From a virus (Duplodnaviria > Heunggongvirae > Uroviricota > Caudoviricetes): a stretch of 64,000 nucleotides of DNA. This document shows positions 7,332 through 64,000 of the stretch, piece after piece. Below the pieces are notes generated by a model. It was not told where the DNA came from. It did no database searches and saw only the letters and a program-made list of their open reading frames with translations. The translations under genes were made by a program, and so were the position numbers. The first letter of the stretch is position 1, and every line of letters begins with the position of its first letter. Where the stretch lies: the IMG/VR virus record IMGVR_UViG_3300013307_000673, one strand, 5' to 3'.

Positions 7332-7340
7332 TTTATTTCC

Positions 7341-8399
7341 TTAATAATAAAGAGCAAACATGTCGTCATAATAAACAGCATTCTCAGGGGTATATTCTCC
7401 TTTTGCCCTGGCAATAAAGCGAGCACTGTCAAATATCAATGAGCCATCATATATGCCATCAAATAATACAGAGGATATTAAATTGGTTGTTGGCGCATTT
7501 TTATTGGCATAACTCATTGGCTGCTCAACCATCACATAACTAAAAGCACGAGCCATCTGTAGCAGCTTTCTTAGTTTTTCTTTATCTCCTGATTTATAAT
7601 ACTTTTCTATTTCTGAGTTTGCTTTATTGGCAGACGATTCCACATCATGGAAATATTTATTAAGACCTTCGCTTGTTGAAGTTAGTTTTTTTCTATTATA
7701 AGCGATATTAGGATCTATAAGTAATATATTTTCACTGAAACCTTTCTCTTTTAAATAACTATTCATATTATTGTATATTTCTTGATTATCGCTATTCATA
7801 GGACCTAAACTACCGTATATGTTAGATAATCTTAAAGAGCCGGATATAAATTTTCTTGCCGTATCTGGATCATCTTCAGGCTTTATTGTTCTTTCCATCG
7901 TATTAGAAACACTTACAGGGATGTCTTTAAGCTCGCTATCAGGCAATCCTTTTGTCGCCTGCAGTAGCCGCTCATAATTTTCATTTTGGTCTTTATATTT
8001 AAAACCATTAATTATCATTGAATTAATATTATAGCCACGACCTCCTCCTCTACTATTAACTATTTTCCTATACATTACATTATCTTTATGTCCGTATAGA
8101 TAGTCTAATGTTTTTAGATCATAGTTAAACTGCGCATCAGAATAAGGCACAGAATCAATTTGCTTTTTAAAGCTTTCATATTCAGTTAAAACATTATGGT
8201 TATGCACTTTATATTCCGCAATATTACTTATTTTAATCGAATATGTATTTATCAAAGCAACATCCCATGAGGTGATTGCTGCAACAGTTAAACCTACACC
8301 TAAAGCAATACGCTTCAGCCATGAAGCCTTTGCGATTTTATTTTTTGATACCTTGGAATAGGTATATTTTTGTCCAAACAAGCTTTTTGTTTTTAACAT
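7341..8399 (-). CDS. Paralog 4 of the N-anchored membrane-protein family, 352 aa.
   Basis: Conserved blocks: SVPYSDAQF, EKGFSENILLIDP, YYKSGDKEKLRKLLQMARAF, and a C-terminal YTPEN..YYDD.F.LY. Confidence 0.65.
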   Translation of the reverse strand: MLKTKSLFGQKYTYSKVSKNKIAKASWLKRIALGVGLTVAAITSWDVALINTYSIKISNIAEYKVHNHNVLTEYESFKKQIDSVPYSDAQFNYDLKTLDYLYGHKDNVMYRKIVNSRGGGRGYNINSMIINGFKYKDQNENYERLLQATKGLPDSELKDIPVSVSNTMERTIKPEDDPDTARKFISGSLRLSNIYGSLGPMNSDNQEIYNNMNSYLKEKGFSENILLIDPNIAYNRKKLTSTSEGLNKYFHDVESSANKANSEIEKYYKSGDKEKLRKLLQMARAFSYVMVEQPMSYANKNAPTTNLISSVLFDGIYDGSLIFDSARFIARAKGEYTPENAVYYDDMFALYY

Positions 8400-8409
8400 A
8401 TTTTAGTCC

Positions 8410-9459
8410 CTAGAAATATAATGAAAAAAATGAATCATCATAATACAAAGAGTTATCAGGTGTATAATCACCATTTTTCTGAGCAATCCATTTTATAGTT
8501 TCCGCCACACCATAACCATTTTCAGCATCACCTATAAGCTTAAATGAAAGGGGAGGCTCAACTAATCCCACATTATACGTTTTCTGCGCTATCTCTCCCG
8601 CTATGCGATATTTGAATGCATACGCCATCTGGAGCAGCTCTTTCAGCTTCGCCTTATCACCAGAACGATAAACACTCTCAAGCTCAGCATTCGCTTTCTG
8701 AGTAGACTCTCGCACTTTTGTATAAAACTTTTCAATACCTTCAGATCTATCACCTCGTGAAAGAGCAAGATCAGGCGATATGAAAAGAATATTTTCACCA
8801 AATCCTTTTTCTTTGAAATAATGCTCCATGTTTTCATAAAGCCCTTTATTCAAAGATATTCCCTCACCAAAAGTGGCATAGCTTGCGCTCATTCTATATG
8901 AAGCTAATGAGTTCATTGCCCACTTTACTTTATCCTTTTTAACACCCTCATCCAAAGAAAATACTTTGTATATTTCAGGATTTAGATCTTTGAATTCCTT
9001 TTCAGGCATATCTTTTGTTAAGGTTAGTAGCTTATTATACGTTGCGACCTGATCGATATATTTACCACTTCCTAACGTCATCATGCCTAAAAAAGAACCA
9101 TAACCTCCACTGACGCCGCTCATTATTTTGTTATACATAACGTTCTCCTGATGATTATAGATAACATCAAGAACCTTTAAATCCTGATTAAACTGCGCAT
9201 CTGTATAAGGAACTGCATCTATTTGTGATTTAAATGTGCTATAGGATGATAACGATTTATAATGGTTTACTTTGTAGTTTGCTAATGTGTTTACCTTAGC
9301 AACATCACCACTTAATATAGCCACATCACATGCAGCAATACCTGCCACCGTAAACATTACACCTACTATAACTTTTTTAACAAAAGAGGTCTTACTGACC
9401 TTAGCCGATTTCTCTTTATAGGTTATATCGTTATTAAATACACTTTTAAATTTAAACAT
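8410..9459 (-). CDS. Paralog 3 of the N-anchored membrane-protein family, 349 aa.
   Basis: Conserved blocks: AVPYTDAQF, EKGFGENILFISP, YRSGDKAKLKELLQMAYAF, and a C-terminal YTPDN..YYDD. Confidence 0.65.
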   Translation of the reverse strand: MFKFKSVFNNDITYKEKSAKVSKTSFVKKVIVGVMFTVAGIAACDVAILSGDVAKVNTLANYKVNHYKSLSSYSTFKSQIDAVPYTDAQFNQDLKVLDVIYNHQENVMYNKIMSGVSGGYGSFLGMMTLGSGKYIDQVATYNKLLTLTKDMPEKEFKDLNPEIYKVFSLDEGVKKDKVKWAMNSLASYRMSASYATFGEGISLNKGLYENMEHYFKEKGFGENILFISPDLALSRGDRSEGIEKFYTKVRESTQKANAELESVYRSGDKAKLKELLQMAYAFKYRIAGEIAQKTYNVGLVEPPLSFKLIGDAENGYGVAETIKWIAQKNGDYTPDNSLYYDDSFFSLYF

Positions 9460-9474
9460 TTGCAGTATCCTTAT

Positions 9475-10548
9475 TTAGTGCCATAGAATAAAATCATCTT
9501 TATCGTAGAGCGATTCTTTTTCAGGTATTAGTGTTCCTGTCATCTTCTGATATGCCTTCGCGCCTTGTTGTATAGTTTCATAATAATCATAGTTATTATC
9601 AAAATACGTCATGAGCATAGCAGATATAGGGAAGCCTATATGCGCATTTTCTTTTAGAGATTGATCTACAGCAACAGAAGTAAAAGCATTACCGAGCCGG
9701 AACACCTCCCTTAACTTATCCAAATCTCCATGCTTATAGTATGCCTTCAATGTTTCAATATTTAATGCAACCTCTCTATCTATTTTATCTTGTTCACTCT
9801 GATATTCTTTTGAACTTATTTCCCCAAGCTTCATTTTGATATAAGCCGATTTCCATAAATACATATTTTTGCTTATACCATGTTCGCTTAATAATCTTTC
9901 AAAGTTACCATAAATAGGAGCATACGTATTATCAGCAGCAATATTTAAATCACTATTCATTACAACGAATATAGATTTAGCACGCTTCTTTGCCTGCAAA
10001 TCGTCAGAGTAAGAAAATCCATCGCTTTTTATTTTATATTTATCTGTAATACGCTGTATTTTTTCCGCGTTAAGTGTTGAACTTAGGTTATCACCATTCA
10101 CATCATCAACAGATTCTCGATTCAAAAAAGACATCTCTTTTAAATAACCAACAGGATCAGTGTAAGTGTATTTAAGCAGTAAAAGTGTATCAAGACCATC
10201 GCCATAGTTTATTGTATTTCTAAAAGATTTATTACCCTCAATATAGGTTAACTTAAATATGTTTAAATCTCGGTTAAAATCCGCATCTGAATAAGGAACT
10301 GCTTCCATTTTAGATTTAAACGTCGAATAATTATTTATTTGAGCGTTATTATAGGTTTTATAGTCAACCATATCAGCAACATGCTTAATATTGGTCAGGT
10401 TAACCGCCACATCCCATGAGGCTATAGAAGCAATAGAAAGCGCTACGCCTAAAGCAACTCTTTTGAATAGAGATGCCTTATTGATTTTACTTTTGCTTGT
10501 TTCCCTATAGCTAACATTTTTGTCAAAGATATTTTTAGTTTTTAACAT
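9475..10548 (-). CDS. Paralog 2 of the N-anchored membrane-protein family. Start moved to an internal ATG, giving 357 aa.
   Basis: An AAGGA RBS lies 9 nt before the ATG at 10548. The tabled start at 10578 would overlap paralog 1. Conserved blocks: AVPYSDADF and YYKHGDLDKLREVFRLGNAF. Confidence 0.6.
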   Translation of the reverse strand: MLKTKNIFDKNVSYRETSKSKINKASLFKRVALGVALSIASIASWDVAVNLTNIKHVADMVDYKTYNNAQINNYSTFKSKMEAVPYSDADFNRDLNIFKLTYIEGNKSFRNTINYGDGLDTLLLLKYTYTDPVGYLKEMSFLNRESVDDVNGDNLSSTLNAEKIQRITDKYKIKSDGFSYSDDLQAKKRAKSIFVVMNSDLNIAADNTYAPIYGNFERLLSEHGISKNMYLWKSAYIKMKLGEISSKEYQSEQDKIDREVALNIETLKAYYKHGDLDKLREVFRLGNAFTSVAVDQSLKENAHIGFPISAMLMTYFDNNYDYYETIQQGAKAYQKMTGTLIPEKESLYDKDDFILWH

Positions 10549-10558
10549 TATGAATTCC

Positions 10559-11650
10559 TTATGGCCTATACCAAACATCGAATATGCCTTTTTTATATAT
10601 TTTTTCTTTTTCTGGTGTTAACGAGCCAGTATATTTAGAATACAACTCAGCAGGCTTCAAGAAATTAGTTGTGCCTAACATTTCATCCTGATATAAATAA
10701 AATGAAAAAGAATATCCTAAACGGTAATCATTTTTGATGCCATCAATATAATCAGAAACGACTACTGTCGAAAAGCCGTTACCTATTTTGAATAGCTCCC
10801 TAATCTTTTTAAAATCGCCTTTTTCATAATAAGCACGTAATGCTTCATTATTCTTATTCATCTGATTGTCATAATTTTCATATATTGCTTTTGCTTCAGG
10901 ACTTCCCGATTTACCGATTACTGCATCTAGCTTTTTGACATCTTCTTTTTTGGGAAAATAAGCTTGAGCATTAAACCCTTTCTCCGTCAACAACTGACTA
11001 AGATTATCATAAATTTTACTTTCACTATGCATATAAGTATAAGAGGAGCCTAGCGACAGGTTTGCTCTTATTGACTTGATCATTCCAGGATCACTAAAAT
11101 CTTTCTTATAAGGTTTATGCTTGTCATTAATAGCGCTAATCTTGCCGTAAAAGTCTTTTTCTCTTTCACCTGTCATTTCTTTAACATCACGCCCTTTTGT
11201 GAAGTTATAGACATCTTTATAAAACTCTCCAGGATTATCAAGATTAAAATTCATCTGCAGCATCGTATTTAGCTCCACACCACTACCTACCGGGCCATCT
11301 CTCCACATGTATTTTTTGAAAGCCGCATTATCTGTGCCTCTATAGCCATATATATATTCAAAGGTATTCAGATCTTTTTTGAACTGCGCATCCGTGTAAG
11401 GCACCGCCATCACTCTCGCCTTAAAAGAACTGTAGTTATCAAGTGAGGCATTATCCGCTATCTTGTAATCAACCATTTTATTGATATGAGCAATATTTGA
11501 GGTGGTTACAGCAACATCGTAGGTAGCAAAACCTCCAAATAAACAGAAAGCACCTATAACGATAGGCTTCCACATCTTTCTTTTTATAACAGATTTATCT
11601 GCAGCTACAGTCCTTTGACCGAACAGTGTTTTATTGCCAAACTTTAACAT
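10559..11650 (-). CDS. Paralog 1 of the N-anchored membrane-protein family, 363 aa.
   Basis: GAGGA RBS. TM helix IVIGAFCLFGGFATY. Conserved blocks: AVPYTDAQF and YYEKGDFKKIRELFKIGNGF. Preceded by a sigma70-like promoter and by terminator 11722-11752. Confidence 0.65.
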   Translation of the reverse strand: MLKFGNKTLFGQRTVAADKSVIKRKMWKPIVIGAFCLFGGFATYDVAVTTSNIAHINKMVDYKIADNASLDNYSSFKARVMAVPYTDAQFKKDLNTFEYIYGYRGTDNAAFKKYMWRDGPVGSGVELNTMLQMNFNLDNPGEFYKDVYNFTKGRDVKEMTGEREKDFYGKISAINDKHKPYKKDFSDPGMIKSIRANLSLGSSYTYMHSESKIYDNLSQLLTEKGFNAQAYFPKKEDVKKLDAVIGKSGSPEAKAIYENYDNQMNKNNEALRAYYEKGDFKKIRELFKIGNGFSTVVVSDYIDGIKNDYRLGYSFSFYLYQDEMLGTTNFLKPAELYSKYTGSLTPEKEKIYKKGIFDVWYRP

Positions 11651-38326: not shown

Positions 38327-39391
38327 ATGAAACACATAAGAGATATTTCTGTTAGGGCTGTTGCTTCATCGGTATTATTTATTTTTTCATTTTATGCATT
38401 TATTCCTTTTGTATTTTATTTAACCGGAGATATATCAACATCTCTGATATTATTTTCCGCTATTCCTTTTCTGCTATTACCTGCATCACTTTTTATTCGG
38501 CATTACATTACGGTTAATCTGATTAACCCATTATCCTTATTACGTAAAGATATTCATAACCTCAGCAACAAAGACTTCTGTAAGAGCGCATTTTGCTCTC
38601 CTGATCTTGATGTAGTCAGAGAAATGTTAAGCCAATGGGCAACTCAGCAGCAGGAAGCCTCACAGCGTCTTAATGACAGTCTTATCTCACTGGATAAAGG
38701 TAATCTCGCGCTACTCTCCAGAAATGAAACACAGAGCCGCGCTGTTGAGAAAACCGCATATAATGTCAATGAGCTTTATCAGGTCGCCTCACACAACGAA
38801 CAGGAGTCCAATCAGGCCTTTTCATTGGCTTCTATGACACTTGCTGGTGTTCAGGAGGCCATAGAGAATGTTTCACTTATGACAAACTCTACAAGCACTA
38901 TAAAGGACCAGTCTTTGGAGATTAAAAAGATATCAGACTTTATCAGTGAGATGGCCTTTAAAACAAACTTACTTTCATTGAACGCCTCAATTGAAGCCGC
39001 AAGAGCGGGCGATCATGGCAGAGGCTTTTCTGTTGTAGCCAATGAAGTGAGATTGCTGGCTAAAAGTTGTGCTGATTCCGCTCAGGAAATCAAGGCGCTT
39101 GTGAATGATACCTCCTCTCAAATAGAAGATACATTCAAACTGAATAATAAAAACGCGGCTTATATCCATGAAATGCTTACGATGATAGAGAGAACTAATG
39201 TGGCGCTTTCTACGATTAGCACATCATCCAAAGAACAACGCATGAAAATAGAATGTATGAAGAACTCTATTGATAATATTATTATGGCGGTTTACGAAAA
39301 TACAACTTACTCCGAGGAAACTGCTAAGATATTAAACAATATTCGACATGATCTTGATGATATTGAAAAGGAGCATAAAAAGGCCGCATAA
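38327..39391 (+). CDS. Methyl-accepting chemotaxis protein (MCP) signalling-domain protein, 354 aa, with an N-terminal two-helix membrane hairpin and no periplasmic sensor.
   Basis: Near-perfect MCP highly-conserved-domain signature FKTNLLSLNASIEAARAGDHGRGFSVVANEVRLLA. Two adjacent TM helices at residues 10-58. Confidence 0.75.
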   Translation: MKHIRDISVRAVASSVLFIFSFYAFIPFVFYLTGDISTSLILFSAIPFLLLPASLFIRHYITVNLINPLSLLRKDIHNLSNKDFCKSAFCSPDLDVVREMLSQWATQQQEASQRLNDSLISLDKGNLALLSRNETQSRAVEKTAYNVNELYQVASHNEQESNQAFSLASMTLAGVQEAIENVSLMTNSTSTIKDQSLEIKKISDFISEMAFKTNLLSLNASIEAARAGDHGRGFSVVANEVRLLAKSCADSAQEIKALVNDTSSQIEDTFKLNNKNAAYIHEMLTMIERTNVALSTISTSSKEQRMKIECMKNSIDNIIMAVYENTTYSEETAKILNNIRHDLDDIEKEHKKAA

Positions 39392-48108: not shown

Positions 48109-48231
48109 TTATGATTTTAAAAATTCCTGAGCTTCTTCAATGCGCTTAGCCGTTCCCGCATTAGGCTCAACTTCCTGCAGACGTTTTGCGTCTTCTAACA
48201 ACTTAGCCACTAACTCTTTTACGTCAGTCAT
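48109..48231 (-). CDS. Small protein (40 aa, MTDVKELVAKLLEDAKRLQEVEPNAGTAKRIEEAQEFLKS).
   Basis: Not in the ORF table. Strong AAGAGGA RBS. Confidence 0.35.
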   Translation of the reverse strand: MTDVKELVAKLLEDAKRLQEVEPNAGTAKRIEEAQEFLKS

Positions 48232-48334
48232 TGCTTTAATCCTCTTAAGGTAAGGTAGTTATCATATCATTTCATGACAACAATAACAACTGTTTTTCAA
48301 GCAAAGAGCCTCTGAAGAGACTCTTTCTTCTGCT

Positions 48335-48835
48335 TCAGATAAGCTTTTCATCTAATATATTATAAACATCTGAAATGTTTATAGTATATCGCTTAGTTAT
48401 TTCGTAATTCCCATAATAACCGCTATCAGTGCGTGTGTTACGCTCCATTTTTTCAAAAACATACTGAACCAACTCATCTATCTGCTTATCATTCCTTTTA
48501 GGAAGCATCGCTGATAATAATATACGAATGGCTTTTTTTACCAGTGAGATTTTTTCTTCGTAATACTTTGGCTCATCCATATCGTCAGACCAGCAAGAAC
48601 CCGACCATTGCTCTTCAATCAACATAGACACACATAAATACTCATCATTCATAAAAAATGAGTAATGATTTTTACGAAAGAAGTTATCACTGTCTGAGCC
48701 TCTCAGATAGTCAGCCTGTTTCTGCACAATCGCTTTAACTTTCGACACGTCTTTATTGATTAACAACATGATTTTCATTCCTAAAAGTAAGATTGCAGTG
48801 ATTATACCGACAATATTGATGTAAAGCAAGCACAA
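48335..48835 (-). CDS. Hypothetical protein, 166 aa, with an N-terminal TM helix.
   Basis: Complete ORF. N-terminal hydrophobic segment VGIITAILLLGMKIMLLI. Confidence 0.5.
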   Translation of the reverse strand: MCLLYINIVGIITAILLLGMKIMLLINKDVSKVKAIVQKQADYLRGSDSDNFFRKNHYSFFMNDEYLCVSMLIEEQWSGSCWSDDMDEPKYYEEKISLVKKAIRILLSAMLPKRNDKQIDELVQYVFEKMERNTRTDSGYYGNYEITKRYTINISDVYNILDEKLI

Positions 48836-48858
48836 AAAAGCCTCCGAAGAGGCTTAGT
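48833..48858 (-). terminator. Intrinsic terminator (AGCCTC-CGAA-GAGGCT) downstream of the peptidase gene. The same sequence occurs at 25722-25740.
   Basis: 6-bp GC stem with a T-run on the minus strand. Confidence 0.65.
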
Positions 48859-48865
48859 CTATATC

Positions 48866-50770
48866 TTATCTCTTCAGGAAATACTTCTCAAACAACTCAA
48901 TCTGCTGAGTCAGGAAGTCTTCCTGATATTCAATCACCACATCATCACCTTTTGGCGTCAGAATCGGCGTCATGAAGCCTACCACTGTAGCCAATCCTAA
49001 GCCACTCACACGCTCTAACACCTCTTTATGAACCAACTGATTAACTTTGGTGCCATAGGTCTCTACGAGGGCTTTAGCTGCGTTAAAATCGCCTTCTGAT
49101 TTAATACGCTGAATCTCTGCCAGCAACTGACCGACCAGAGCGCGAACACCATCAAGATCATTAACCTCAATGAAATACTGACCCTCTTTCACAACCATCG
49201 CCATCTGCTCAGGCTTTGCTTTCTCAAGCAACCATGTAGAGATAATCTGGCGGTTTCTGAAGTGAGCTTGCGTCAGATCAGCACCCAAACGCACCCGGCG
49301 CAACTGACCAATAGCACCATTAGTGAAATATGCCACGTATTTAGCCATTGCTGCATCGCGAACATTGACATCCTCAGCAAAAATACCAATCTCTTTTAGC
49401 TTCTCATCAGGGATATAATAAAGCGCAACCAGATCAGCACGACATTCCTCAATTACTGAGTAATACGTGGACAGAACATCACTGTTAACGCCGTCCAGCA
49501 CCTTGCCTGATCCATGACCAGCAATCTCATGTAAGTCCGTATGAAGAACGCCTGTCTCATTGCCATAACGCTTAATCAGATCCTGATATTTATCCAGATA
49601 CAAGGCTTTGGTTAATGGCACATCATAGCTACTACGTGAGGAATCCACGTTAGACAACGTAACGGATTTAGAACCAAACTTTTTACGAATCCAGTCGCTG
49701 TTAGGCAAGTTAATCCCTAAAGGCAGCACAGGAGAGGTTTCTCCAGCCATAGAAATAACATTGATAGAACTCGCAGATAGCCCTACAGCCTTATCTTTCT
49801 TAAAGCGCTTATCAAACGGGAGATTATCCTCAAACCACTGGATATTATCAATGATACGCTTCACTTTAGCTGTCTGTGCTGGATTTTTAAACGCAACCAA
49901 ACTCTCAAAGTTACACGCCACACCTAGCGGATCTTTATAAGATTCAATCAAGCCATTTACGAAATAAATCGAACTATCCTGATCTTGCGTCCACGCTACA
50001 CAGTGCTTATCAAAATCAGCAGCATCACCCGTCTCATAGAAGGTAATCAGTGTCTCAATAGAGGCATGTTGTTTTTCATTTTCAGTGTAGTTCAGAGCAA
50101 GCTTAAGCTCTTTAATGATTTCTTTAACATAGCGACCATAAAGACCATCAGCGAAGATGACTTCTCGTTTAATCTCACCCGTGAGATGATTTTTTAGGAG
50201 TTTCTCGTTAAATCCGTAAGGTGGAATCTCATCATTATCATGTTTCGGGTAGGCTTCTTTGCGAAAAGCAATTACTTCCTCGGTGGTAAGGCCAGCATAG
50301 AAGTTAACACCAGACTGCTTAACCACATCTACGCCGTCTTTTTGAACGGTGCGGTATAAAGGTAGATTATAGGTATCGTTCTCAAAAAGAAATATTTCAA
50401 TCGATAAGGCAGCTAATGAACAGTAAACATTAGAACACAATACATCAAATTGCTCACTATCCAGAGGCAGTGTCAGTTTTTCACCTGTTGTGGTATGATA
50501 AAGACCACCGTGCGCAAAGAGCATAAATAAACTATCACGAACCTGCTTAAAAGCTTCAGTTTCTTTATCAAGATGTTTATACATATGGATTAGTGCAGGA
50601 ATAACGATAAGGTTAGCGCTTGATCCCTGAGTCAGCCCGATCACTTTCCCCCACATACCCGCTTCTGACAGATGATAAGCCAGACGTTTAGTGCGGCTAT
50701 CGAGTGATGAGAAGCCTTCAGTGTCCAGCTTTACGATTGCAATATCATTAAGACGTTCAGAATATGTCAT
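48866..50770 (-). CDS. Dipeptidyl-peptidase III-like zinc metallopeptidase (M49 family), 634 aa.
   Basis: M49 signature motifs HEIAGHGSGK (HExxGH) and IEECRADLVALYY (EECRAE/D) at the expected spacing. Full-length, comparable to cellular DPP III. Confidence 0.7.
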   Translation of the reverse strand: MTYSERLNDIAIVKLDTEGFSSLDSRTKRLAYHLSEAGMWGKVIGLTQGSSANLIVIPALIHMYKHLDKETEAFKQVRDSLFMLFAHGGLYHTTTGEKLTLPLDSEQFDVLCSNVYCSLAALSIEIFLFENDTYNLPLYRTVQKDGVDVVKQSGVNFYAGLTTEEVIAFRKEAYPKHDNDEIPPYGFNEKLLKNHLTGEIKREVIFADGLYGRYVKEIIKELKLALNYTENEKQHASIETLITFYETGDAADFDKHCVAWTQDQDSSIYFVNGLIESYKDPLGVACNFESLVAFKNPAQTAKVKRIIDNIQWFEDNLPFDKRFKKDKAVGLSASSINVISMAGETSPVLPLGINLPNSDWIRKKFGSKSVTLSNVDSSRSSYDVPLTKALYLDKYQDLIKRYGNETGVLHTDLHEIAGHGSGKVLDGVNSDVLSTYYSVIEECRADLVALYYIPDEKLKEIGIFAEDVNVRDAAMAKYVAYFTNGAIGQLRRVRLGADLTQAHFRNRQIISTWLLEKAKPEQMAMVVKEGQYFIEVNDLDGVRALVGQLLAEIQRIKSEGDFNAAKALVETYGTKVNQLVHKEVLERVSGLGLATVVGFMTPILTPKGDDVVIEYQEDFLTQQIELFEKYFLKR

Positions 50771-50976
50771 AGTATCTCCTTTAAAAGTGCGTATACTTTA
50801 TCATGTTTTCCAATGGATTAAAACATTTTTCATCAAACTAATCTTGTTTAAGTTTACCTTATAGGACTTGTCTTAAATCATTATCAAATCTTAACATTAC
50901 TCTTTTAAATGCATTTACATTTTTCATAAATTTGATACTATTTTTATACACTTAAACTACTTTTAAAAGGACAAAT

Positions 50977-51444
50977 ATGAATAGAATTATATTAACCAGT
51001 TTATTGTTATCCGCATCATTATTTTCTTCCACTGTATTATCAGCAACACCTGTTTATGAAAGAATAAATTTAAGCATTGTGCCTGACGTGGGAATTGGAT
51101 ATAGCCATACTTTTTACGTTCCTTACGATAATAAAAAACATTATTTTTATTTTGATCAAAAAGACTCAAGTTTAAAAGAAACAACCGATGGATCTTTTTT
51201 TGATAAAAACACAGACTCTGATAGCACATATTTCACCTTCACACAGGTCCGCAACCCAAACACACCTGAGAAAGACAATACTTATTTCAATATTCACTAT
51301 AAAGATTACAATAATAATAACTGTTTAGTTGAGTCCACCGCAGGCACTGTATTTTATAATAATCCATATAAAACTATTAGCATCTTAAAAAGCTGCACAA
51401 AAGATAAAAAGACTACATATAAAATATCTTTATCTTTAAGTTAA
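50977..51444 (+). CDS. Secreted hypothetical protein, 155 aa.
   Basis: Signal peptide MNRIILTSLLLSASLFSSTVLSA. Followed by bidirectional terminator 51442-51470. The antisense ORF 50987..51229 is rejected. Confidence 0.5.
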   Translation: MNRIILTSLLLSASLFSSTVLSATPVYERINLSIVPDVGIGYSHTFYVPYDNKKHYFYFDQKDSSLKETTDGSFFDKNTDSDSTYFTFTQVRNPNTPEKDNTYFNIHYKDYNNNNCLVESTAGTVFYNNPYKTISILKSCTKDKKTTYKISLSLS

Positions 51445-52148: not shown

Positions 52149-52273
52149 ATTTATTCTCCATCGATTATTTACGCTCTATATCATTATGCTTTTCAAATAG
52201 CAAATCTATATAGTTGTCAATTTGATTTACCCCCTGCTAAATGATACAGTTTAGAAAAATAAAGGAGATTACA

Positions 52274-53233
52274 ATGTTTAGTCTAACTGATGTTATGCGT
52301 GTATTCGATAACCGCGCCAGAGAGTTTGCTGGTCTGAGAGAAGATCAGATTTTTATGTTTGATGCGAGCGCTGAAGAAATCATTAAAAGAAGCCAAAAAA
52401 GAACGCTATGGGGATTGGGAAAGCCCGAAACTCTTGATTTTAAAGTGAGAACAACCAGTGGGTTTACACCGTTTTCTAAAACCGATGAGTTAGCCAAAAT
52501 CAAACTCTTTATAGAAAATGGCGCTGATATTAATAAAGTTGACATCTATGGCGAAAATGCTCTTTTCAACCAAAGCTACAGCATTGAAAACACTATTTAT
52601 TTATTAGAAAAAGGCATTAACGTTAATCAGCGGAATACAAAAGGCGAAAATGTTCTTGATAATCTTCACTTTCACCATGATTATGATGAAGCTATAGCTG
52701 AGCTTTATATAAAATATGGCATCGACTACCATCATGTTAATCCCAAGACTCAACGTAATGGTTTATTTACTTTAGACCATCAAAAAGGCTTATTTTTAGT
52801 TAAAAATGGAATCAATATTCATCAGATTGATTCGTATGGTCGCAATATGCTTTTTTATTTAGATAGCAACGAAAAAGACGGAAGCCTTCAGCTATTAACT
52901 GAGCTTATCAAACAAGGGATTAATATTAATCAAGTCGATCAATGGGGGCGCAATGCTTTATTTGAATCAGGCTCTGATATTAAAAAAGCCCGATTACTTC
53001 TTGAGGCAGGAATAAATGTTAATCAAGTTGATGAAAAAGGGAATAGTGCATTAGAATATACTTATTGGGAAGATAATGAAAAACTTTTATTCTCTTATGG
53101 CATTAAAGATAGAGAATATAAAAAGGAAGGCATGTTCACAAAAGAAAGAATGAGATTTGCAATGAGAAATCACAGACAGGACAACTGGAGTGCTCTTTTT
53201 AAGTCATCTCCAAAATTAAGTTATGAAGTGTAA
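52274..53233 (+). CDS. Ankyrin-repeat protein, about 319 aa, with at least five ANK repeats.
   Basis: Repeated G(A/I)(D/N)(I/V)N..(D/N)..G.NALF/LxYL blocks (GADINKVDIYGENALF, GINVNQRNTKGENVL, GINIHQIDSYGRNMLFY, GININQVDQWGRNALFE, GINVNQVDEKGNSALEY). Start moved to the ATG at 52274 (AAGGAG RBS). Confidence 0.65.
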   Translation: MFSLTDVMRVFDNRAREFAGLREDQIFMFDASAEEIIKRSQKRTLWGLGKPETLDFKVRTTSGFTPFSKTDELAKIKLFIENGADINKVDIYGENALFNQSYSIENTIYLLEKGINVNQRNTKGENVLDNLHFHHDYDEAIAELYIKYGIDYHHVNPKTQRNGLFTLDHQKGLFLVKNGINIHQIDSYGRNMLFYLDSNEKDGSLQLLTELIKQGININQVDQWGRNALFESGSDIKKARLLLEAGINVNQVDEKGNSALEYTYWEDNEKLLFSYGIKDREYKKEGMFTKERMRFAMRNHRQDNWSALFKSSPKLSYEV

Positions 53234-53698: not shown

Positions 53699-53828
53699 AT
53701 AGTCTTATCAGGTTAGGTGTTGTATCGGCCCACCTCTTAAACGATAATAGGAAAGTCTGGTTTCGCTCCAAACGTGCTATTACCTTTCACATCCACTCAC
53801 GTTGTCGGACGCAACCTAATAAAACAGG

Positions 53829-53903
53829 TGATTTCTGCAGGACTCGAACCTACGTCGTCAGCGGATTCTCCCGCCAATGCTCTACCCGTTGAGCTAAAAA
53901 ATC
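53829..53903 (-). tRNA. Aberrant tRNA-like gene. Acceptor, D-arm and T-arm are canonical, but the anticodon arm is a tight GCGGG-AGAA-TCCGC hairpin (or an 8-nt loop GGAGAATC). No CCA encoded.
   Basis: GATTTTTTAGCTCAACGGGTAGAGCATTGGCGGGAGAATCCGCTGACGACGTAGGTTCGAGTCCTGCAGAAATCACC. No 7-nt anticodon loop can be drawn. Confidence 0.4.
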
Positions 53904-59595: not shown

Positions 59596-59683
59596 TGGTG
59601 TCTCAAGAGGGATTTGAACCCTCACGCCCATTACAGGCACTGGCATCTTAAACCAGCGTGTCTACCTATTCCACCATCAAGAC
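59596..59683 (-). tRNA. tRNA-Leu-like type II tRNA with a non-canonical anticodon loop (TTAAGAT, anticodon AAG; or a 9-nt loop).
   Basis: GTCTTGATGGTGGAATAGGTAGACACGCTGGTTTAAGATGCCAGTGCC...GAGGGTTCAAATCCCTCTTGAGACACCA. The D-arm is nearly identical to tRNA-Leu(TAA). A34 is unusual. Confidence 0.45.
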
Positions 59684-59859
59684 ATAATGGCAATTTTCGC
59701 CACATCCAAGCCGCTTTACAACGACCGGAACAGGCTAGCTGCGTGGAGAGTGTGTCTACCATAATATCAGTAGCAGTGACCTCAGTTTAGCTCGCCAAGC
59801 CAAACTCCAGAATACGCCGCAGACTTCCAGTATTACCTGCAGATAATAACTGGCATTCT

Positions 59860-59936
59860 TGGTGTTCAGTACTGGATTCGAACCAGTGTCGATAGAAATG
59901 CGATCCTACCCGATATACCACTAATCTCAACTAAAC
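59860..59936 (-). tRNA. Aberrant tRNA-like gene. Acceptor and T-arm are good, but the anticodon stem GGTAG/CTATC encloses a 10-nt loop (GATCGCATTT) and the D-stem is weak.
   Basis: GTTTAGTTGAGATTAGTGGTATATCGGGTAGGATCGCATTTCTATCGACACTGGTTCGAATCCAGTACTGAACACCA. Confidence 0.35.
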
Positions 59937-60004
59937 AGTAGCCTGCTAGTTCCCGCTCATCTGGAACTCTTCTCCCGAAGGCTGAGAGCACTATTTAACA
60001 GGCT

Positions 60005-60080
60005 TGGTGGAAGTTATCGGATTCGAACCGATCCAGATGCTTGAGTTACAAACAGAGCTGTCAAACCAGAGTTGACTCCC
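60005..60080 (-). tRNA. Aberrant tRNA-like gene. Acceptor and T-arm are good, the D-stem has 3 bp, and the anticodon arm TGTTT/AAGCA has loop GTAACTC (or a 6-bp stem with a 5-nt loop).
   Basis: GGGAGTCAACTCTGGTTTGACAGCTCTGTTTGTAACTCAAGCATCTGGATCGGTTCGAATCCGATAACTTCCACCA. Confidence 0.35.
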
Positions 60081-60128
60081 ATATTACAGCATTGAGGCTG
60101 TATTTTTCATTTAACAGCTTACAAACTG

Positions 60129-60317
60129 TTAACGGCAAATAACCTGAATAATGCCATTACCGTTTTCTCTCAGTGTATCCGTTGGCTCTCCGCCATGCTT
60201 GATACAACGACCATGATACTCTGAGATTTCATTTTGAGACAGAGGCTCTTGCCTCATAACTACACACATCAGCAAAGCCAGAATAATAATAAAAACAGGA
60301 ACACTATATTTTGCCAT
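60129..60317 (-). CDS. Small secreted protein, 62 aa, with signal peptide.
   Basis: MAKYSVPVFIIILALLMCVV hydrophobic N-terminus. GAGGCGAATAAAA RBS. Confidence 0.4.
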   Translation of the reverse strand: MAKYSVPVFIIILALLMCVVMRQEPLSQNEISEYHGRCIKHGGEPTDTLRENGNGIIQVICR

Positions 60318-60347
60318 TTTTATTCGCCTCTTTGCTTATTAAATTAG

Positions 60348-60422
60348 CACCGCTGCAGGGACTCGAACCCTATCCGTCAACATCGCCGCCGGGCGACAAA
60401 TCACGGGATTACTCCCACCGAT
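60348..60422 (-). tRNA. Possible degenerate tRNA-like element. It has a T-arm, an acceptor with one G-G mismatch, and a tight TCGCC-CGGC-GGCGA hairpin at the anticodon position.
   Basis: ATCGGTGGGAGTAATCCCGTGATTTGTCGCCCGGCGGCGATGTTGACGGATAGGGTTCGAGTCCCTGCAGCGGTG. Weakest of the tRNA-like calls. Confidence 0.2.
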
Positions 60423-60552
60423 TATAGTAGATGCCTCTACTTGACTTTAACGCTTGCTTTTCAGCAAATCCAATCCATACTCATTGGTTACTTATGTACA
60501 ATTTTCGCCAATTTTCTTTTGCGTCTTACTCGGAGTCGAACCGAGAAGCGGT

Positions 60553-60628
60553 TGGTGCATTCAGCAGGACTTGAACCTGCGACACCCGGATTTTCAATCC
60601 AGTGCTCTACCAACTGAGCTACAAATGC
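60553..60628 (-). tRNA. tRNA-Phe (anticodon GAA), copy 2 (anticodon loop TTGAAAA).
   Basis: GCATTTGTAGCTCAGTTGGTAGAGCACTGGATTGAAAATCCGGGTGTCGCAGGTTCAAGTCCTGCTGAATGCACCA. Confidence 0.75.
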
Positions 60629-60637
60629 ATTAAAACA

Positions 60638-60666
60638 ATCATACCCTATTCAAACCTGAAGTACAA
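60638..60666 (-). promoter_or_regulatory. Conserved tRNA promoter (TTGTAC-N17-TATGAT) upstream of tRNA-Phe copy 2.
   Basis: The -35 element lies within GGTTGTACTTCAGG with 17-nt spacing. The -10 element ends 10 nt before the tRNA 5' end. Confidence 0.55.
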
Positions 60667-60815
60667 CCATTTTTTATTGGTTCACGCGACGGGTCTTGCT
60701 CCCGCAGCCTACTTTACAGATACTCAGCCGTATACAGCCTTTTTCCAACCTGACGTGTTTTGCGGGGCGTTTCCCCTTCATAGTCAGGTGACGTTCTACT
60801 ATTGAACTACGCGTG

Positions 60816-60897
60816 TGGTGCATAAGAAAGGACTCGAACCTTTACACAATTTCATGGTCAAACCATGTATCCGCTCTACCAACTGAGCTACTTATGC
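60816..60897 (-). tRNA. Aberrant tRNA-like gene. Acceptor, D-arm and T-arm are canonical, but the anticodon region is a CATGG-TTTGA-CCATG hairpin plus 11 extra nt (possible TTG/Gln-like loop GTTTGAC).
   Basis: GCATAAGTAGCTCAGTTGGTAGAGCGGATACATGGTTTGACCATGAAATTGTGTAAAGGTTCGAGTCCTTTCTTATGCACCA. Confidence 0.35.
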
Positions 60898-62068: not shown

Positions 62069-62668
62069 TTACAAGCCTATATTACAGTTAACATGGTTCC
62101 GCCATGACTGATTTAACAGGAACGCACCTACAGAAACAAATCGTGTTTGTTGCTTATAATAAAACTTGGAATAATCACCATGCCTGTCATACTCATGACC
62201 TTCAAAATACGTTAAGCCACTCCATATCTTTTTATGATTATCCAAACAGTATTCATCCTCAATGTATTTACACCTGTAGCCAAACTCCTTCGACCTCTCC
62301 CGATAACTTTGAGCCTGAACTGCTTTTAGCTCACCCGCTATCCATTGACGCAATAAACCTTTCTCACTAAGAAAAGCGGTCCATGCATCGAACGGCTTAA
62401 ACTGATCAGACATAATCGCCCCATAGATATCCAGCTCATAGAGATTACCTATGTGATTTATACGCAGTGCTTCACGTTCACCTATCATAGCGTCAATAAT
62501 TGATGCCGTTGACCCATTTTCAATCAAACGAACAGATGAACCATTATAACCTACGTCTTTAAGGGTGTCTTTTTTGGCAGAAAGAATGTCATAGGAGCGA
62601 GAAACTAAAGAGAAAGCATCATCAGCTTTACTGATAAATAAACAGAAGTAAGAATAGTTTTTTGACAT
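62069..62668 (-). CDS. Hypothetical protein, 199 aa.
   Basis: Complete ORF. The antisense ORF 62104..62370 is rejected. Confidence 0.5.
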   Translation of the reverse strand: MSKNYSYFCLFISKADDAFSLVSRSYDILSAKKDTLKDVGYNGSSVRLIENGSTASIIDAMIGEREALRINHIGNLYELDIYGAIMSDQFKPFDAWTAFLSEKGLLRQWIAGELKAVQAQSYRERSKEFGYRCKYIEDEYCLDNHKKIWSGLTYFEGHEYDRHGDYSKFYYKQQTRFVSVGAFLLNQSWRNHVNCNIGL

Positions 62669-62843
62669 AATAATACCCCAAGTTGATAGTTAATAAAAAG
62701 ATGTTGCCTCTTTTAACGACTTGGCGTATTTAACAGTATACTAATAATCTGAACAAGCCTGATCATCTGCCTTATAATAACATAACAAATATTTGATTGC
62801 TATTAAATTATAGAATATTGTTAAAGCTAAAAGGAGGGCATTA

Positions 62844-64000
62844 TGGCAGAAAAAACAAAACAACTCAAAACGTTTTCACTTCATGAAAAAAATATGAAGT
62901 TTGTTGCCATAATGAAAAAAGCTGTTCTGCGATACAAGCACCTCGAAAATATGTTGAACATTATCCTTGGCAAAGAGGCTGAAAGCATCTTTGCCTTACC
63001 TAAAGAAAAAAGAGACTTCTCTTTCTTCAACCTTCTCACCAACAGTATCATCATGAAGGCAGTTATCTCCGACAACAGCGGCGGCGAGAAAACTCAAGGA
63101 TCTATTCTGAAATGTAAAGCCTTCCTGATCGAAAACCATAATGAGATCTATCAGCAGTTGCTGTCCGAAGGGCAGCAGCTTAATGACAAAAATATTTCTC
63201 AGATTGTAACGCGCTTAGGTAAGGACTGGAAAAACAGCTTTAAAAACCTCGGCAAATACTATGCTAATCCCAGCAAGTTTACAGGAAAACCAGAAACACC
63301 TAAAACCAAAAAGTTAAGTAAGGTGTTTAACTATTCGGTTCCGCTTGAGGTAAGCAAGTTTTCCCTGAAGAAAAAAGACCGTTTGGGTATTAATATCTGG
63401 AAAAAGATGGAATATGTATTTTTCCGGGACAATGATTACATCAAAGATAAAAGAATAAATAATGTTACCGTGGCGCTGTCTCACGGTCATATCTATTATA
63501 AGATTTCTTATGAGAACAAGGTCGAATCTGAGAGAAAAGAGCTTCAGGAAAATGCTGACCAACAGGTTTTAGAAAGAAAAGAAAAAGTGGCTGGCTTGGA
63601 TATTGGCTTGCATCATTTGTTTTCATTGTTTGTTAATGATAGCGATACCGACTCCGTGGTTTATCGTAATGCTAAGATGATTCATTATAACTGCTCCTTT
63701 AATAAACACATGGCTAAGTTAAACAACGAGCTGTCAAGGCACGTGGCTGAATACAGGGAGATTACTAAAAAAGACGGCTCGGTTTCTCAGGTTCCTGAGA
63801 AATATACGTCTTATGGGCAGCATATAAGAAAGCAAATGAGCAATATGTTTAACGCACGCAACCAGTTCTTTGACGGAGAGATGAATAAGCTGTCTTCGGC
63901 ATTACTTTCTTATCTGAAAACCAATGCGGTTTCTGATTTGGTGATTTCTAAAAATCTGTCTTTTGTAAAGACCAGTGGAAACATCAAGCAGCATAAGAAA
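62844..64000 (+). CDS. TnpB-like (IS200/IS605 OrfB, RuvC-fold) protein, partial. At least 385 aa, with the C-terminus beyond the window.
   Basis: Not in the ORF table (no stop in window). AAAAGGAGGG RBS before the ATG at 62844. RuvC-I motif VAGLDIGLHHLFSLFVNDSDTDSVVY. OrfB-like N-terminus (KTFSLHEKNMKF...VLRYKHLENMLN). RuvC-II-like block NARNQFFDGEMNKLSSALLSYLKTNAVSDLVISKNLSF, in which the usual catalytic Glu appears to be Ser. Confidence 0.55.

What the first reader, a model, noticed from the sequence alone, without database searches (positions are those of the whole stretch)
62844..64000. TnpB-like RuvC protein, possibly with a substituted catalytic Glu, without a visible transposase
A plus-strand ORF that the ORF table omits (no stop before the window edge) encodes an IS200/IS605 OrfB/TnpB-like protein. 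It has an OrfB-type N-terminus, the RuvC-I motif AGLDIGLHHLFSLFVND, and an RuvC-II-like block in which the usual I(E)DL glutamate appears as Ser (LVISKNLSF). There is no TnpA or Y1 transposase in the 170 nt upstream. TnpB proteins are RNA-guided nucleases and ancestors of Cas12, and inactivated versions act as RNA-guided regulators. A phage-resident, possibly catalytically altered TnpB with its guide RNA in the unseen downstream region would be noteworthy.
Basis: partly seen in the sequence, partly recalled or inferred. Interest (0 to 1): 0.65.

Follow-up and report, generated by a model that had tools for sequence, protein, structure and literature searches.

The report
Transposase-less IS607 TnpB element in jumbo phage
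The ORF is a real TnpB RNA-guided nuclease gene in a 1.8-kb transposase-less IS607-type insertion sequence within a jumbo-phage-like genome, and its "missing" catalytic glutamate has moved about 49 residues downstream, an arrangement already described, so the nuclease is probably active and the element is an ordinary member of a known kind.

Summary
The ORF starts at ATG 62843, not 62844. It runs open to the window end (386 codons) and passes Pfam's OrfB_IS605 threshold.

The 3' end lies beyond the window. A copy 99.9% identical over the shared 1275 nt, with an identical left flank (L002, IMG/VR 259-kb contig), supplies it. That copy gives a 547-aa protein.

The canonical RuvC-II glutamate position is Lys/Arg in most of the clade and never Glu (0 of 198 relatives). 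A glutamate six residues before the former zinc-finger position (E419) is invariant, as are D253 and D478. This is the published "alternative Glu" (Ealt, RuvC-II-rearranged) TnpB configuration, so the protein is not predicted to be dead.

The zinc-finger cysteines are lost.

The element is about 1.78 kb. It has sharp ends in six different insertion contexts, sits at or within 1-2 nt downstream of a GG, and ends in GG. Relatives at 35-73% identity carry a MerR-HTH/serine-recombinase TnpA immediately upstream, which is the IS607 organisation. This copy is therefore a non-autonomous IS607 derivative.

A conserved three-helix RNA with strong covariation overlaps the gene's 3' end and runs to the right end. 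It looks like an ωRNA scaffold.

Copies are under purifying selection (dN/dS about 0.1).

Verdict: a new member of a known kind, of modest interest.

The parts
62723..62724 (+). GG dinucleotide in the left flank, 1 nt before the element. This is the candidate IS607 crossover/target dinucleotide and part of the presumed TAM.
   Evidence: Left flanks of six independent insertions end in GG 0-2 nt before GTATTTAAC. The IS607 family inserts at or downstream of GG and terminates in GG (PMC13565253, PMC10711439).
62726..62842 (+). Left end (LE) of the element, 117 nt. It starts GTATTTAACAG and contains CCTGATCAT, an inverted copy of the right-end (RE) ATGATCAGG.
   Evidence: Similarity to copies in other contexts (L001, L003, L010, L011, L015) begins abruptly here. 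It resembles the LE of the TnpA-bearing relatives L017/L018.
62750..62778 (+). Promoter-like site inside the LE (TGAACA, 17-nt spacer, TATAAT). An AAAGGAGG ribosome-binding site follows at about 62830-62837.
   Evidence: Consensus scan on the 99.9%-identical copy, L002 2908-2936, matches 10 of 12 positions. Coordinates were transferred with an offset of +59842. This is a consensus match only.
62843..64000 (+). tnpB ORF, codons 1-386 of 547, cut by the window end.
   Evidence: The ORF is 93-94% identical to the 547-aa proteins P0001/P0002. Nucleotides are 99.9% identical to L002.
63599..63601 (+). RuvC-I catalytic Asp D253 (AGLDIG, a D-hydrophobic-G motif).
   Evidence: Invariant in alignments A2/A8 and present in 197 of 198 family members.
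63947..63952 (+). S369-K370, the canonical RuvC-II Glu position occupied by a non-acidic residue (VISKNL).
   Evidence: Position 370 is K in 118, R in 52 and E in 0 of 198 members. K370 aligns to the E of LVAMENI in Cas12j19/Cas12X (weak, E about 0.2). It follows strand beta4 (365-369) in the AF2 model.

Best explanation
The window ends inside a 1.78-kb non-autonomous IS607-family insertion sequence. Its only gene is a 547-aa TnpB.

The protein keeps a complete RuvC triad, but in the rearranged "alternative glutamate" layout:
- D253 is the RuvC-I Asp.
- E419 follows strand beta5, six residues before the former zinc-finger position.
- D478 is the RuvC-III Asp (NADxN motif).
- The canonical Glu position holds Lys/Arg in 170 of 198 members and never Glu.
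- The CxxC zinc finger is lost.

The last 127 nt or more of the element overlap the gene's 3' end and run to the ...GAACGG terminus. They encode a conserved three-helix RNA that most likely forms the ωRNA (reRNA) scaffold. Transcription reading through into the flank would supply the guide.

Inferred mechanism: the TnpB-ωRNA complex recognises a G-rich TAM ending in (A)GG plus the flank-derived guide. It cleaves alleles that lack the element, either after excision or in co-infecting related phage genomes. Recombinational repair from an element-bearing copy then restores or spreads the element (homing). Transposition to new GG sites needs a serine-recombinase TnpA supplied in trans, as encoded by autonomous relatives.

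What is shown:
- family membership and fold
- conserved triad positions
- element ends and multiple insertion contexts
- TnpA in relatives
- RNA covariation
- purifying selection

What is inferred:
- nuclease activity
- TAM identity and guide use
- homing in phages
For: Family membership and fold:
- Pfam hits are above threshold.
- The AF2 model (pLDDT 79) matches Cas12f, APMV Fanzor2 (9b0l) and ISFba1 IS607 TnpB (8iaz) at E 1e-12 to 1e-10.

Catalytic residues:
- D253 is present in 197 of 198, E419 in 198 of 198 and D478 in 195 of 198 members. No member has Glu at position 370, and S426 replaces the first Cys in 190 of 198 (alignments).
- The E-x6-(Cys position) spacing equals the published Ealt definition (PMC10711439). 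RuvC-II-rearranged clades, some virus-enriched, and loss of the zinc finger are described in PMC10691335.

Element ends and mobility:
- Element ends are sharp in six different insertion contexts. Left flanks end in GG and the RE ends in ...AACGG.
- Immediately upstream, MerR-HTH plus Resolvase TnpA ORFs are confirmed by Pfam in nine relatives at 35-73% TnpB identity. tblastn adds further full or remnant TnpAs in other loci.

RNA:
- Covariance model R1 recovers the 3'-end RNA in 27 loci. 93.9% of cells are paired against 39-52% for slid controls, and 23 of 32 pairs carry compensatory changes.
- The RNA is conserved even where the ORF stops earlier.

Selection:
- dN/dS is 0.08-0.13 between copies. 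dS is lower in the last 141 nt in all ten pairs, though the margin is small in some.
Against: - No experiment was done. Nuclease activity, the ωRNA ends and the TAM are all inferred.
- The 3' third of this exact copy is not in the window. It is taken from a copy 99.9% identical over the shared 1275 nt with an identical left flank.
- The alignment of K370 to the canonical Glu rests on a weak hit (E about 0.2) plus predicted secondary structure.
- The RNA alignment was fitted to the model, which inflates pairing counts.
- No empty site with the same flanks was found.
- Copies within one contig differ by dS 0.37-0.49, so no recent transposition is documented.
- Two of the six left flanks have 1-2 extra bases between GG and the LE.
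Confidence: 0.8

Rival explanations
1. [quoted passage not shown]
For: The canonical RuvC-II Glu is replaced by Lys/Arg and the zinc-finger cysteines are lost. This copy has no transposase. Phage-encoded TldR regulators exist (PMC10705468, PMC13418256).
Against: An alternative Glu (E419) and both Asp residues are essentially invariant across 198 members, in the position shown to be catalytic in Fanzors (PMC10711439, PMC13565253). The gene sits inside an element with conserved IS ends in many contexts. It is not at a fixed locus next to a regulated gene. The protein is full length or longer, not C-terminally truncated.
Confidence: 0.05
2. An immobilised, phage-domesticated RNA-guided nuclease. 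It would be kept by the jumbo phage as a weapon against competing phages or host elements, not as a selfish IS.
For: Copies in one contig are old (dS 0.37-0.49) yet intact, with dN/dS about 0.1. No TnpA occurs in the window or in the flanks of close copies. The family has no close relative in 50,697 GenBank phage records.
Against: LE and RE are conserved to the base in six unrelated contexts, with IS607-type GG junctions. A 73%-identical relative is still autonomous. The guide-equivalent flank matches nothing else in the window or in IMG/VR except its own locus. The homing and weapon readings are not mutually exclusive.
Confidence: 0.1
3. An IS200/IS605 (Y1 HUH transposase, IS1341-type) TnpB-only element, as the finding's title implies.
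For: The Pfam family name is OrfB_IS605. The RE contains a 7-bp hairpin (ATGATCA GGTT TGATCAT) reminiscent of the subterminal hairpins of that family.
Against: Every transposase found next to relatives is a MerR-HTH plus Resolvase serine recombinase, and none is a Y1. The GG junctions are IS607-type. Left flanks are G-rich, not AT-rich.
Confidence: 0.03
4. A decaying relic of an insertion sequence with no present function.
For: No transposase is present. The canonical motifs (Glu, zinc finger) are degenerate.
Against: All five compared copies have intact 547-codon ORFs with dN/dS 0.08-0.13. The triad is invariant, and the RNA helices keep pairing through compensatory changes.
Confidence: 0.02

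Closest known systems
IS607-family TnpB/ωRNA elements (e.g. ISXfa1 of Xylella; ISFba1 TnpB-reRNA, PDB 8IAZ)
   Same: TnpB sits downstream of a MerR-HTH/serine-recombinase TnpA in relatives. The element ends in GG and inserts at GG. There are no terminal inverted repeats or target duplications. A structured RNA covers the 3' end plus the RE. The fold matches 8iaz_A (E 5e-10, TM 0.63 normalised to the target).
   Different: This copy has lost tnpA. The protein is about 150 aa longer than the roughly 390-aa RAGATH-18-type IS607 TnpBs. Rfam finds no RAGATH-18 or any other family. The Glu is relocated and the zinc finger is lost.
Ealt (alternative-glutamate) TnpBs with a D-hydrophobic-G RuvC-I motif (Yoon et al. 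2023, PMC10711439); RuvC-II-rearranged 'RIIr' clades (Altae-Tran et al. 2023, PMC10691335)
   Same: The Glu lies six residues upstream of the first zinc-finger position, after beta5 instead of beta4. The RuvC-I motif is DIG/DVG/DLG. RuvC-III has the NADxN motif. Association with IS607 and presence in viruses are both noted for some RIIr branches.
   Different: The canonical position holds Lys/Arg here, whereas RIIr-5 is reported to have Gly. All four zinc-finger cysteines are gone. Which named RIIr branch this belongs to was not determined.
Fanzor2 / pro-Fanzor (APMV Fanzor2, PDB 9B0L)
   Same: Ealt catalytic layout, IS607 ancestry, residence in a giant virus, and a fold match (E 2.7e-10).
   Different: Fanzors and pro-Fanzors have DPG in RuvC-I and keep the CxxC...CxxC zinc finger. 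This family has D-I/L/V-G in 187 of 198 members (P in 4) and no zinc finger. The host context is prokaryotic.
TldR and other inactivated TnpB-derived RNA-guided regulators
   Same: TnpB descent, phage residence and absence of a transposase.
   Different: TldRs lack catalytic residues, are truncated, and sit at fixed loci next to the genes they regulate. Here the triad is conserved and the gene lies in a mobile element.
Free-standing homing endonuclease genes of T-even phages (Seg, Mob)
   Same: The proposed role is the same: a nuclease in a large lytic phage genome cuts the allele lacking it in a co-infecting relative and spreads by repair. Both are found in tRNA-gene regions (SegB).
   Different: Target recognition here would be RNA-guided, and the nuclease is of RuvC type. 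The analogy is functional only and was not tested.

Membership tests
TnpB (OMEGA RNA-guided nuclease, Pfam OrfB_IS605 + Cas12f1-like_TNB) | Significant match to the family profiles | tested here: met
   PF01385 scores 34 bits (GA 30.5) on the window fragment. PF07282 scores 43 bits (GA 26.3) and PF01385 32.8 bits on the full-length proxy.
TnpB (OMEGA RNA-guided nuclease, Pfam OrfB_IS605 + Cas12f1-like_TNB) | WED/REC/RuvC fold of TnpB/Cas12f | tested here: met
   The AF2 model (pLDDT 79.4) has Foldseek hits to Cas12f, Fanzor2 and ISFba1 TnpB at E 1e-12 to 5e-10.
TnpB (OMEGA RNA-guided nuclease, Pfam OrfB_IS605 + Cas12f1-like_TNB) | D-E-D RuvC catalytic triad | tested here: met
   D253, E419 and D478 are invariant or nearly so in 198 members. 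The Glu is at the alternative (Ealt) position, not the canonical one. Three-dimensional geometry was not measured.
TnpB (OMEGA RNA-guided nuclease, Pfam OrfB_IS605 + Cas12f1-like_TNB) | C4 zinc finger between RuvC-II and RuvC-III | tested here: not met
   The first Cys position is Ser in 190 of 198 members and there is no CxxC pair. Loss of the zinc finger is documented for some TnpB branches (PMC10691335), so it is not strictly defining.
TnpB (OMEGA RNA-guided nuclease, Pfam OrfB_IS605 + Cas12f1-like_TNB) | Structured ωRNA/reRNA overlapping the 3' end of the gene and the right end | tested here: met
   The covariance model finds it in 27 loci, with 23 of 32 pairs showing compensatory changes and 93.9% pairing against 39-52% in controls. 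Expression and processing were not tested.
TnpB (OMEGA RNA-guided nuclease, Pfam OrfB_IS605 + Cas12f1-like_TNB) | RNA-guided, TAM-dependent DNA cleavage | not testable with these tools
   This needs biochemistry or a plasmid interference assay.
IS607 family insertion sequence | Serine-recombinase TnpA (MerR-like HTH + resolvase catalytic domain) upstream of tnpB | tested here: not met
   It is absent from this copy, from the 64-kb window and from the flanks of close copies. It is present immediately upstream in relatives at 73%, 47-53% and 35-46% TnpB identity. This copy therefore qualifies only as a non-autonomous derivative.
IS607 family insertion sequence | Element terminates in GG and is inserted at or downstream of a GG, with no TIR and no TSD | tested here: met
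   The RE ends in ...GAACGG in all copies and in distant relatives. Left flanks end in GG in four of six contexts exactly and in two with 1-2 extra bases. No flanking duplication is seen.
IS200/IS605 family (Y1 HUH transposase) | Y1 TnpA association and insertion 3' of an AT-rich tetra- or pentanucleotide | tested here: not met
   Only serine recombinases occur next to relatives, and left flanks are (A)AGG-type. No Y1 profile search of the whole window was run. A PHROG scan of 74 ORFs returned no family annotated as a transposase among its 15 hits.
Fanzor / pro-Fanzor | DPG in RuvC-I together with Ealt | tested here: not met
   Ealt is present, but RuvC-I is D-I/L/V-G in 187 of 198 members and P in only 4.
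TldR-type inactivated TnpB regulators | Loss of RuvC catalytic residues or C-terminal truncation, with a fixed genomic partner gene | tested here: not met
   The triad is conserved, the protein is full length at 547 aa, and flanks vary.
Type V CRISPR-Cas (Cas12) | Adjacent CRISPR array | tested here: not met
   No array lies within about 4 kb either side of the proxy locus. The repeats found there are tRNA genes.

The most novel reading that the evidence does not exclude
These TnpA-less IS607-type TnpB/ωRNA cassettes may persist in jumbo phages as RNA-guided homing endonucleases, that is, gene-drive or marker-exclusion elements acting between co-infecting phage genomes. They would be maintained for long periods without any transposase. 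That would explain several intact copies per genome that are old (dS 0.35-0.5) yet under strong purifying selection. A basic residue at the old Glu site and a zinc-finger-less RuvC insertion may tune cleavage for this lifestyle.
Probability: 0.3. Interest if true: 0.55.

Novelty: new member of a known kind. Interest (0 to 1): 0.3.

Why it matters
The main value is in clearing up the finding. The apparent loss of the catalytic glutamate is the documented relocation (Ealt), not an inactivation. The missing transposase reflects an ordinary non-autonomous IS607 derivative.

What remains of some interest is a compact clade of about 120 clusters at 50% identity. It combines Ealt, Lys/Arg at the old Glu position, no zinc finger, an enlarged N-terminal half and a distinct ωRNA. 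Several intact, selected copies sit in jumbo-phage-like genomes.

If it is active, this clade would add a zinc-finger-free Ealt nuclease for mechanistic comparison with Fanzors. It would also offer a natural system for testing whether TnpB elements home between co-infecting phages without a transposase.

Tried and rejected
- **Frame as given.** Translating from 62844 gives many stops. The correct frame starts at 62843.
- **Other protein libraries.** NCBIfam and PHROGs gave no significant hit for the ORF.
- **GenBank phages.** Megablast of the last 4 kb found no match. tblastn with the protein found only hits at 27% identity or less.
- **Genome contigs.** A scan for close relatives found none.
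- **PDB by sequence.** A single-sequence search gave only noise. A profile search gave only a weak Cas12j19/Cas12X hit, so fold search was used instead.
- **Rfam.** The scan of the element found no RAGATH-18 or other ωRNA family, only two sub-threshold chance hits.
- **Empty sites.** Left flank joined to right flank was searched for two insertion sites in IMG/VR, with no hits. The guide-equivalent 23-mer occurs only next to the element and has no near-match in the window.
- **Partial insertion polymorphism.** Copy L015 is inserted in a diverged homologue of window ORF 50977-51444, where the window has no element. The region is too diverged to define the junction.
- **CRISPR array.** None is present nearby.
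- **Inverted 19-mer.** An inverted copy of an LE segment lies 428 nt downstream of the RE. It has no extended similarity and about 0.3 such matches are expected by chance, so it was rejected.
- **Other copies in the window.** There are no other TnpB or ωRNA copies, apart from one R1 hit at E=0.19 judged to be chance.
- **Triad geometry.** Model coordinates are not exposed, so distances within the triad could not be measured.

Full report
**1. Observation**

Reading 62400-64000 shows a ribosome-binding site (AAAGGAGG) followed by ATG at 62843. Translation from 62844, the coordinate given, is full of stops. Translation from 62843 gives 386 open codons to the window edge.

Pfam OrfB_IS605 matches aa 238-371 at 34 bits, against a gathering cut-off of 30.5, with E=3.8e-8. 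NCBIfam and PHROGs give nothing significant.

**2. Recovering the unseen 3' part**

A protein search found 220 relatives. The closest are 547 aa long and 93-94% identical, and they carry both PF01385 and PF07282. Several sit on the same contig as one another.

Locus L002 comes from IMG/VR UViG_3300031087_000527, a 259 kb contig. Its left flank is identical to the window's. Its element is 99.9% identical over the shared 1275 nt, with one mismatch. I use L002:2884-4662 as a proxy for the missing sequence. The full-length protein hits PF07282 at 43 bits and PF01385 at 32.8 bits.

**3. The glutamate question**

In a 30-sequence alignment and a 70-sequence alignment, D253 (RuvC-I), E419 and D478 (RuvC-III, NADxNAAxNH) are invariant. 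In V(I/L)SKNLSF, S369 and L372 are invariant and K370/N371 nearly so.

I aligned 198 members of at least 440 aa to the family profile. These include representatives from an exhaustive search of 1.84 billion proteins, which returned 121 clusters at E≤1e-30 and 1302 at E≤1e-10. The counts are as follows.

| Position | Residue counts among 198 members |
|---|---|
| D253 | D in 197 |
| 370 (canonical Glu position) | K in 118, R in 52, E in 0 |
| E419 | E in 198 |
| 426 (first zinc-finger Cys position) | S in 190 |
| D478 | D in 195 |

A weak profile hit to Cas12j19/Cas12X (E about 0.2) aligns LvlsKnLs with LVAMENIQ, so K370 matches the canonical Glu. It also aligns ideaYtsktS with VDPRHTSQTS.

The AlphaFold2 model has pLDDT 79.4. 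It places K370 right after strand 365-369 (beta4) and E419 right after strand 413-417 (beta5).

Yoon et al. (PMC10711439) define the "alternative E" (Ealt) as a Glu six residues upstream of the first CxxC, compared with about 50 residues for the canonical Glu. They describe one Ealt clade with a D-hydrophobic-G RuvC-I motif and another with DPG (Fanzors and pro-Fanzors). Altae-Tran et al. (PMC10691335) describe RuvC-II-rearranged clades in which an alternative Glu compensates, note the beta5-versus-beta4 analogy with RuvX, report that some such branches are virus-enriched, and record zinc-finger loss in some branches.

Here the spacing E419-SYTSKT-S426 is exactly E-x6-(Cys position), and RuvC-I is DIG. 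The Glu is therefore relocated, not lost. A dead, regulator-type protein is not supported.

Foldseek against the PDB confirms the fold. Cas12f matches at E about 1e-12, APMV Fanzor2 (9b0l) at 2.7e-10, and the IS607 ISFba1 TnpB (8iaz) at 5.4e-10.

**4. The element and its family**

I compared copies in different contexts (L001, L002/window, L003, L010, L011, L015, L060). Similarity starts abruptly at GTATTTAACAG, which is window 62726, 117 nt before the ATG. It ends 21 nt after the stop codon (24 nt counting the stop) at ...TTTAAAAGAACGG. The element is 1779 bp and has one ORF.

Left flanks end in GG. The six contexts read acaagg|, aaaagg|, gaaagg|, aacagg|, cttggC| and aagggA|, with 1-2 extra bases after the GG in the last two. 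The right end always ends in GG.

Many relatives have an ORF of about 190-205 aa immediately upstream on the same strand. Nine of the ten upstream ORFs tested are MerR-HTH plus Resolvase proteins. These include L017/L018, whose TnpB is 73% identical. tblastn finds full or remnant TnpAs in about 35 loci, but none in the window or next to the close copies.

The LE of L017/L018 (GG|GGCTTTGACAGTTAATT...AAAAATCTGATCAC) resembles the window's LE. Their RE ends in ...TTAGAACGG. According to PMC13565253 and PMC10711439, IS607 elements terminate in GG, insert at or downstream of GG by crossover between GG dinucleotides, and have G-rich TAMs.

The window's element is therefore a non-autonomous IS607-family derivative that has lost tnpA. 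The LE also carries a promoter-like TGAACA-17-TATAAT, a consensus match only.

**5. ωRNA**

The last 120 nt or so are much better conserved at the nucleotide level than the rest of the gene. dS falls from 0.37-0.51 in the first 1500 nt to 0.04-0.31 in the last 141 nt.

RNAalifold predicts three hairpins. A covariance model built from ten close sequences finds the same RNA at the 3' end of tnpB in 27 loci, down to about 37% protein identity, with E from 1e-39 to 3e-4.

On that alignment, 93.9% of cells pair, against 39-52% when partners are slid by 1-3 columns. Compensatory changes occur in 23 of 32 pairs. One caveat is that the alignment was fitted to the model. Helix 2 is nonetheless visibly compensatory by eye: AAAGAGGUUG/CAACCUGCUUU, GUGGGCUUUG/CAAAACGCCAC and GAGGAAGAAG/CUUCUUUCCUC.

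The RNA persists where the ORF ends earlier (L019-L021, L024-L025). All versions down to about 47% protein identity end in ...ACGG. Rfam has no matching family, and RAGATH-18 in particular is not hit. This fits an ωRNA/reRNA scaffold whose guide would be the adjacent flank, TTGTCTGTAATAAAC... at this locus.

The base before the flank GG is A or T in nine insertion sites, but C in the RE (AACGG). That difference could spare the occupied site from self-cleavage. This is inference only.

**6. Selection and mobility**

Five copies have intact 547-codon ORFs. Pairwise dN/dS is 0.08-0.13 and dS is 0.34-0.49, including between the three copies on the 866-kb contig. The genes are functional but the copies are old.

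No empty site with matching flanks was found. Copy L015 lies in a diverged homologue of window ORF 50977-51444, where the window has no element. That is a partial insertion polymorphism.

No CRISPR array is nearby. The local repeats are tRNA genes.

**7. Context**

The window has 38% GC and 12 tRNA genes, and few ORFs with Pfam or PHROG hits. One ORF (phrog_5960) is about 33% identical to proteins of 350-380-kb Rak2/GAP32/CBB/Serratia-phage-BF-type jumbo phages.

IMG/VR lists the syntenic region as viral. That "virus" is the terminal 259 kb of an 866-kb metagenome contig, and a third element copy lies outside it. "Phage-resident" is therefore plausible but not proven for the whole contig. TnpB genes in phages and huge phages are already reported (PMC12607003, PMC10691335).

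**8. Verdict**

The finding is real and the homology call is right. Both features flagged as noteworthy have ordinary explanations within the published TnpB literature: an Ealt-rearranged active site, and a non-autonomous IS607 derivative.

The specific clade combines Ealt with Lys/Arg at the old Glu site, no zinc finger, a length of about 550 aa, its own ωRNA, and multiple copies in jumbo-phage-like genomes. That makes it a new member of a known kind. The most interesting open possibility is transposase-independent homing between co-infecting phages, which is untested.

Noticed in passing
window 53827-53903 (-): ARAGORN calls a tRNA with a four-base anticodon (agaa) among the window's 12 tRNA genes. 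It could be a frameshift-suppressor-type or aberrant tRNA.
   Followed up: no
window 6228-11650 (-): Five tandem paralogous ORFs of 349-367 aa with no Pfam or PHROG match.
   Followed up: no
window 48866-50770 (-), 38327-39391 (+), 52241-53233 (+): Unusual cargo for a phage: a Peptidase_M49 (DPP3-like) protein at E 4e-56, a protein with a methyl-accepting chemotaxis signalling domain, and an ankyrin-repeat protein.
   Followed up: no
L009/L011/L016 (contig Ga0308161_1000008, 866,249 bp): The IMG/VR 259-kb "virus" syntenic with the window is only the last 259 kb of an 866-kb contig. That contig carries three diverged copies of the element, one of them outside the part called viral. The true nature and size of the replicon are unclear.
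   Followed up: partly
L001:19522-20982 (+): A second, unrelated TnpB-like ORF (486 aa, 22% identical) lies on the phage-like contig L001. It has ALDPGSRT (DPG) in RuvC-I, VNESYTSKTQS (Glu at the Ealt position, no Cys) and DRDINGARN. PF07282 scores 47.5 bits. This resembles the DPG+Ealt fingerprint reported as Fanzor/pro-Fanzor-specific.
   Followed up: partly
window 59596-60897 and L005 754-2055, 8162-9038: The element sits inside a tRNA-gene cluster. The autonomous relative L018 is also inserted next to tRNA genes similar to those of the window.
   Followed up: no
L005 6090-6108: A 19-nt inverted copy (17 of 19 matches) of the LE segment GCCTGATCATCTGCCTTAT lies 428 nt downstream of the right end, inside a coding region. 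There is no extended similarity, so it is probably chance.
   Followed up: yes
window 50805-51444 vs L015 2597-2885: In a related genome (L015, 89% identical over window 48183-50804), a copy of the element interrupts the diverged homologue of the window's signal-peptide ORF 50977-51444. The window has no insertion there.
   Followed up: partly
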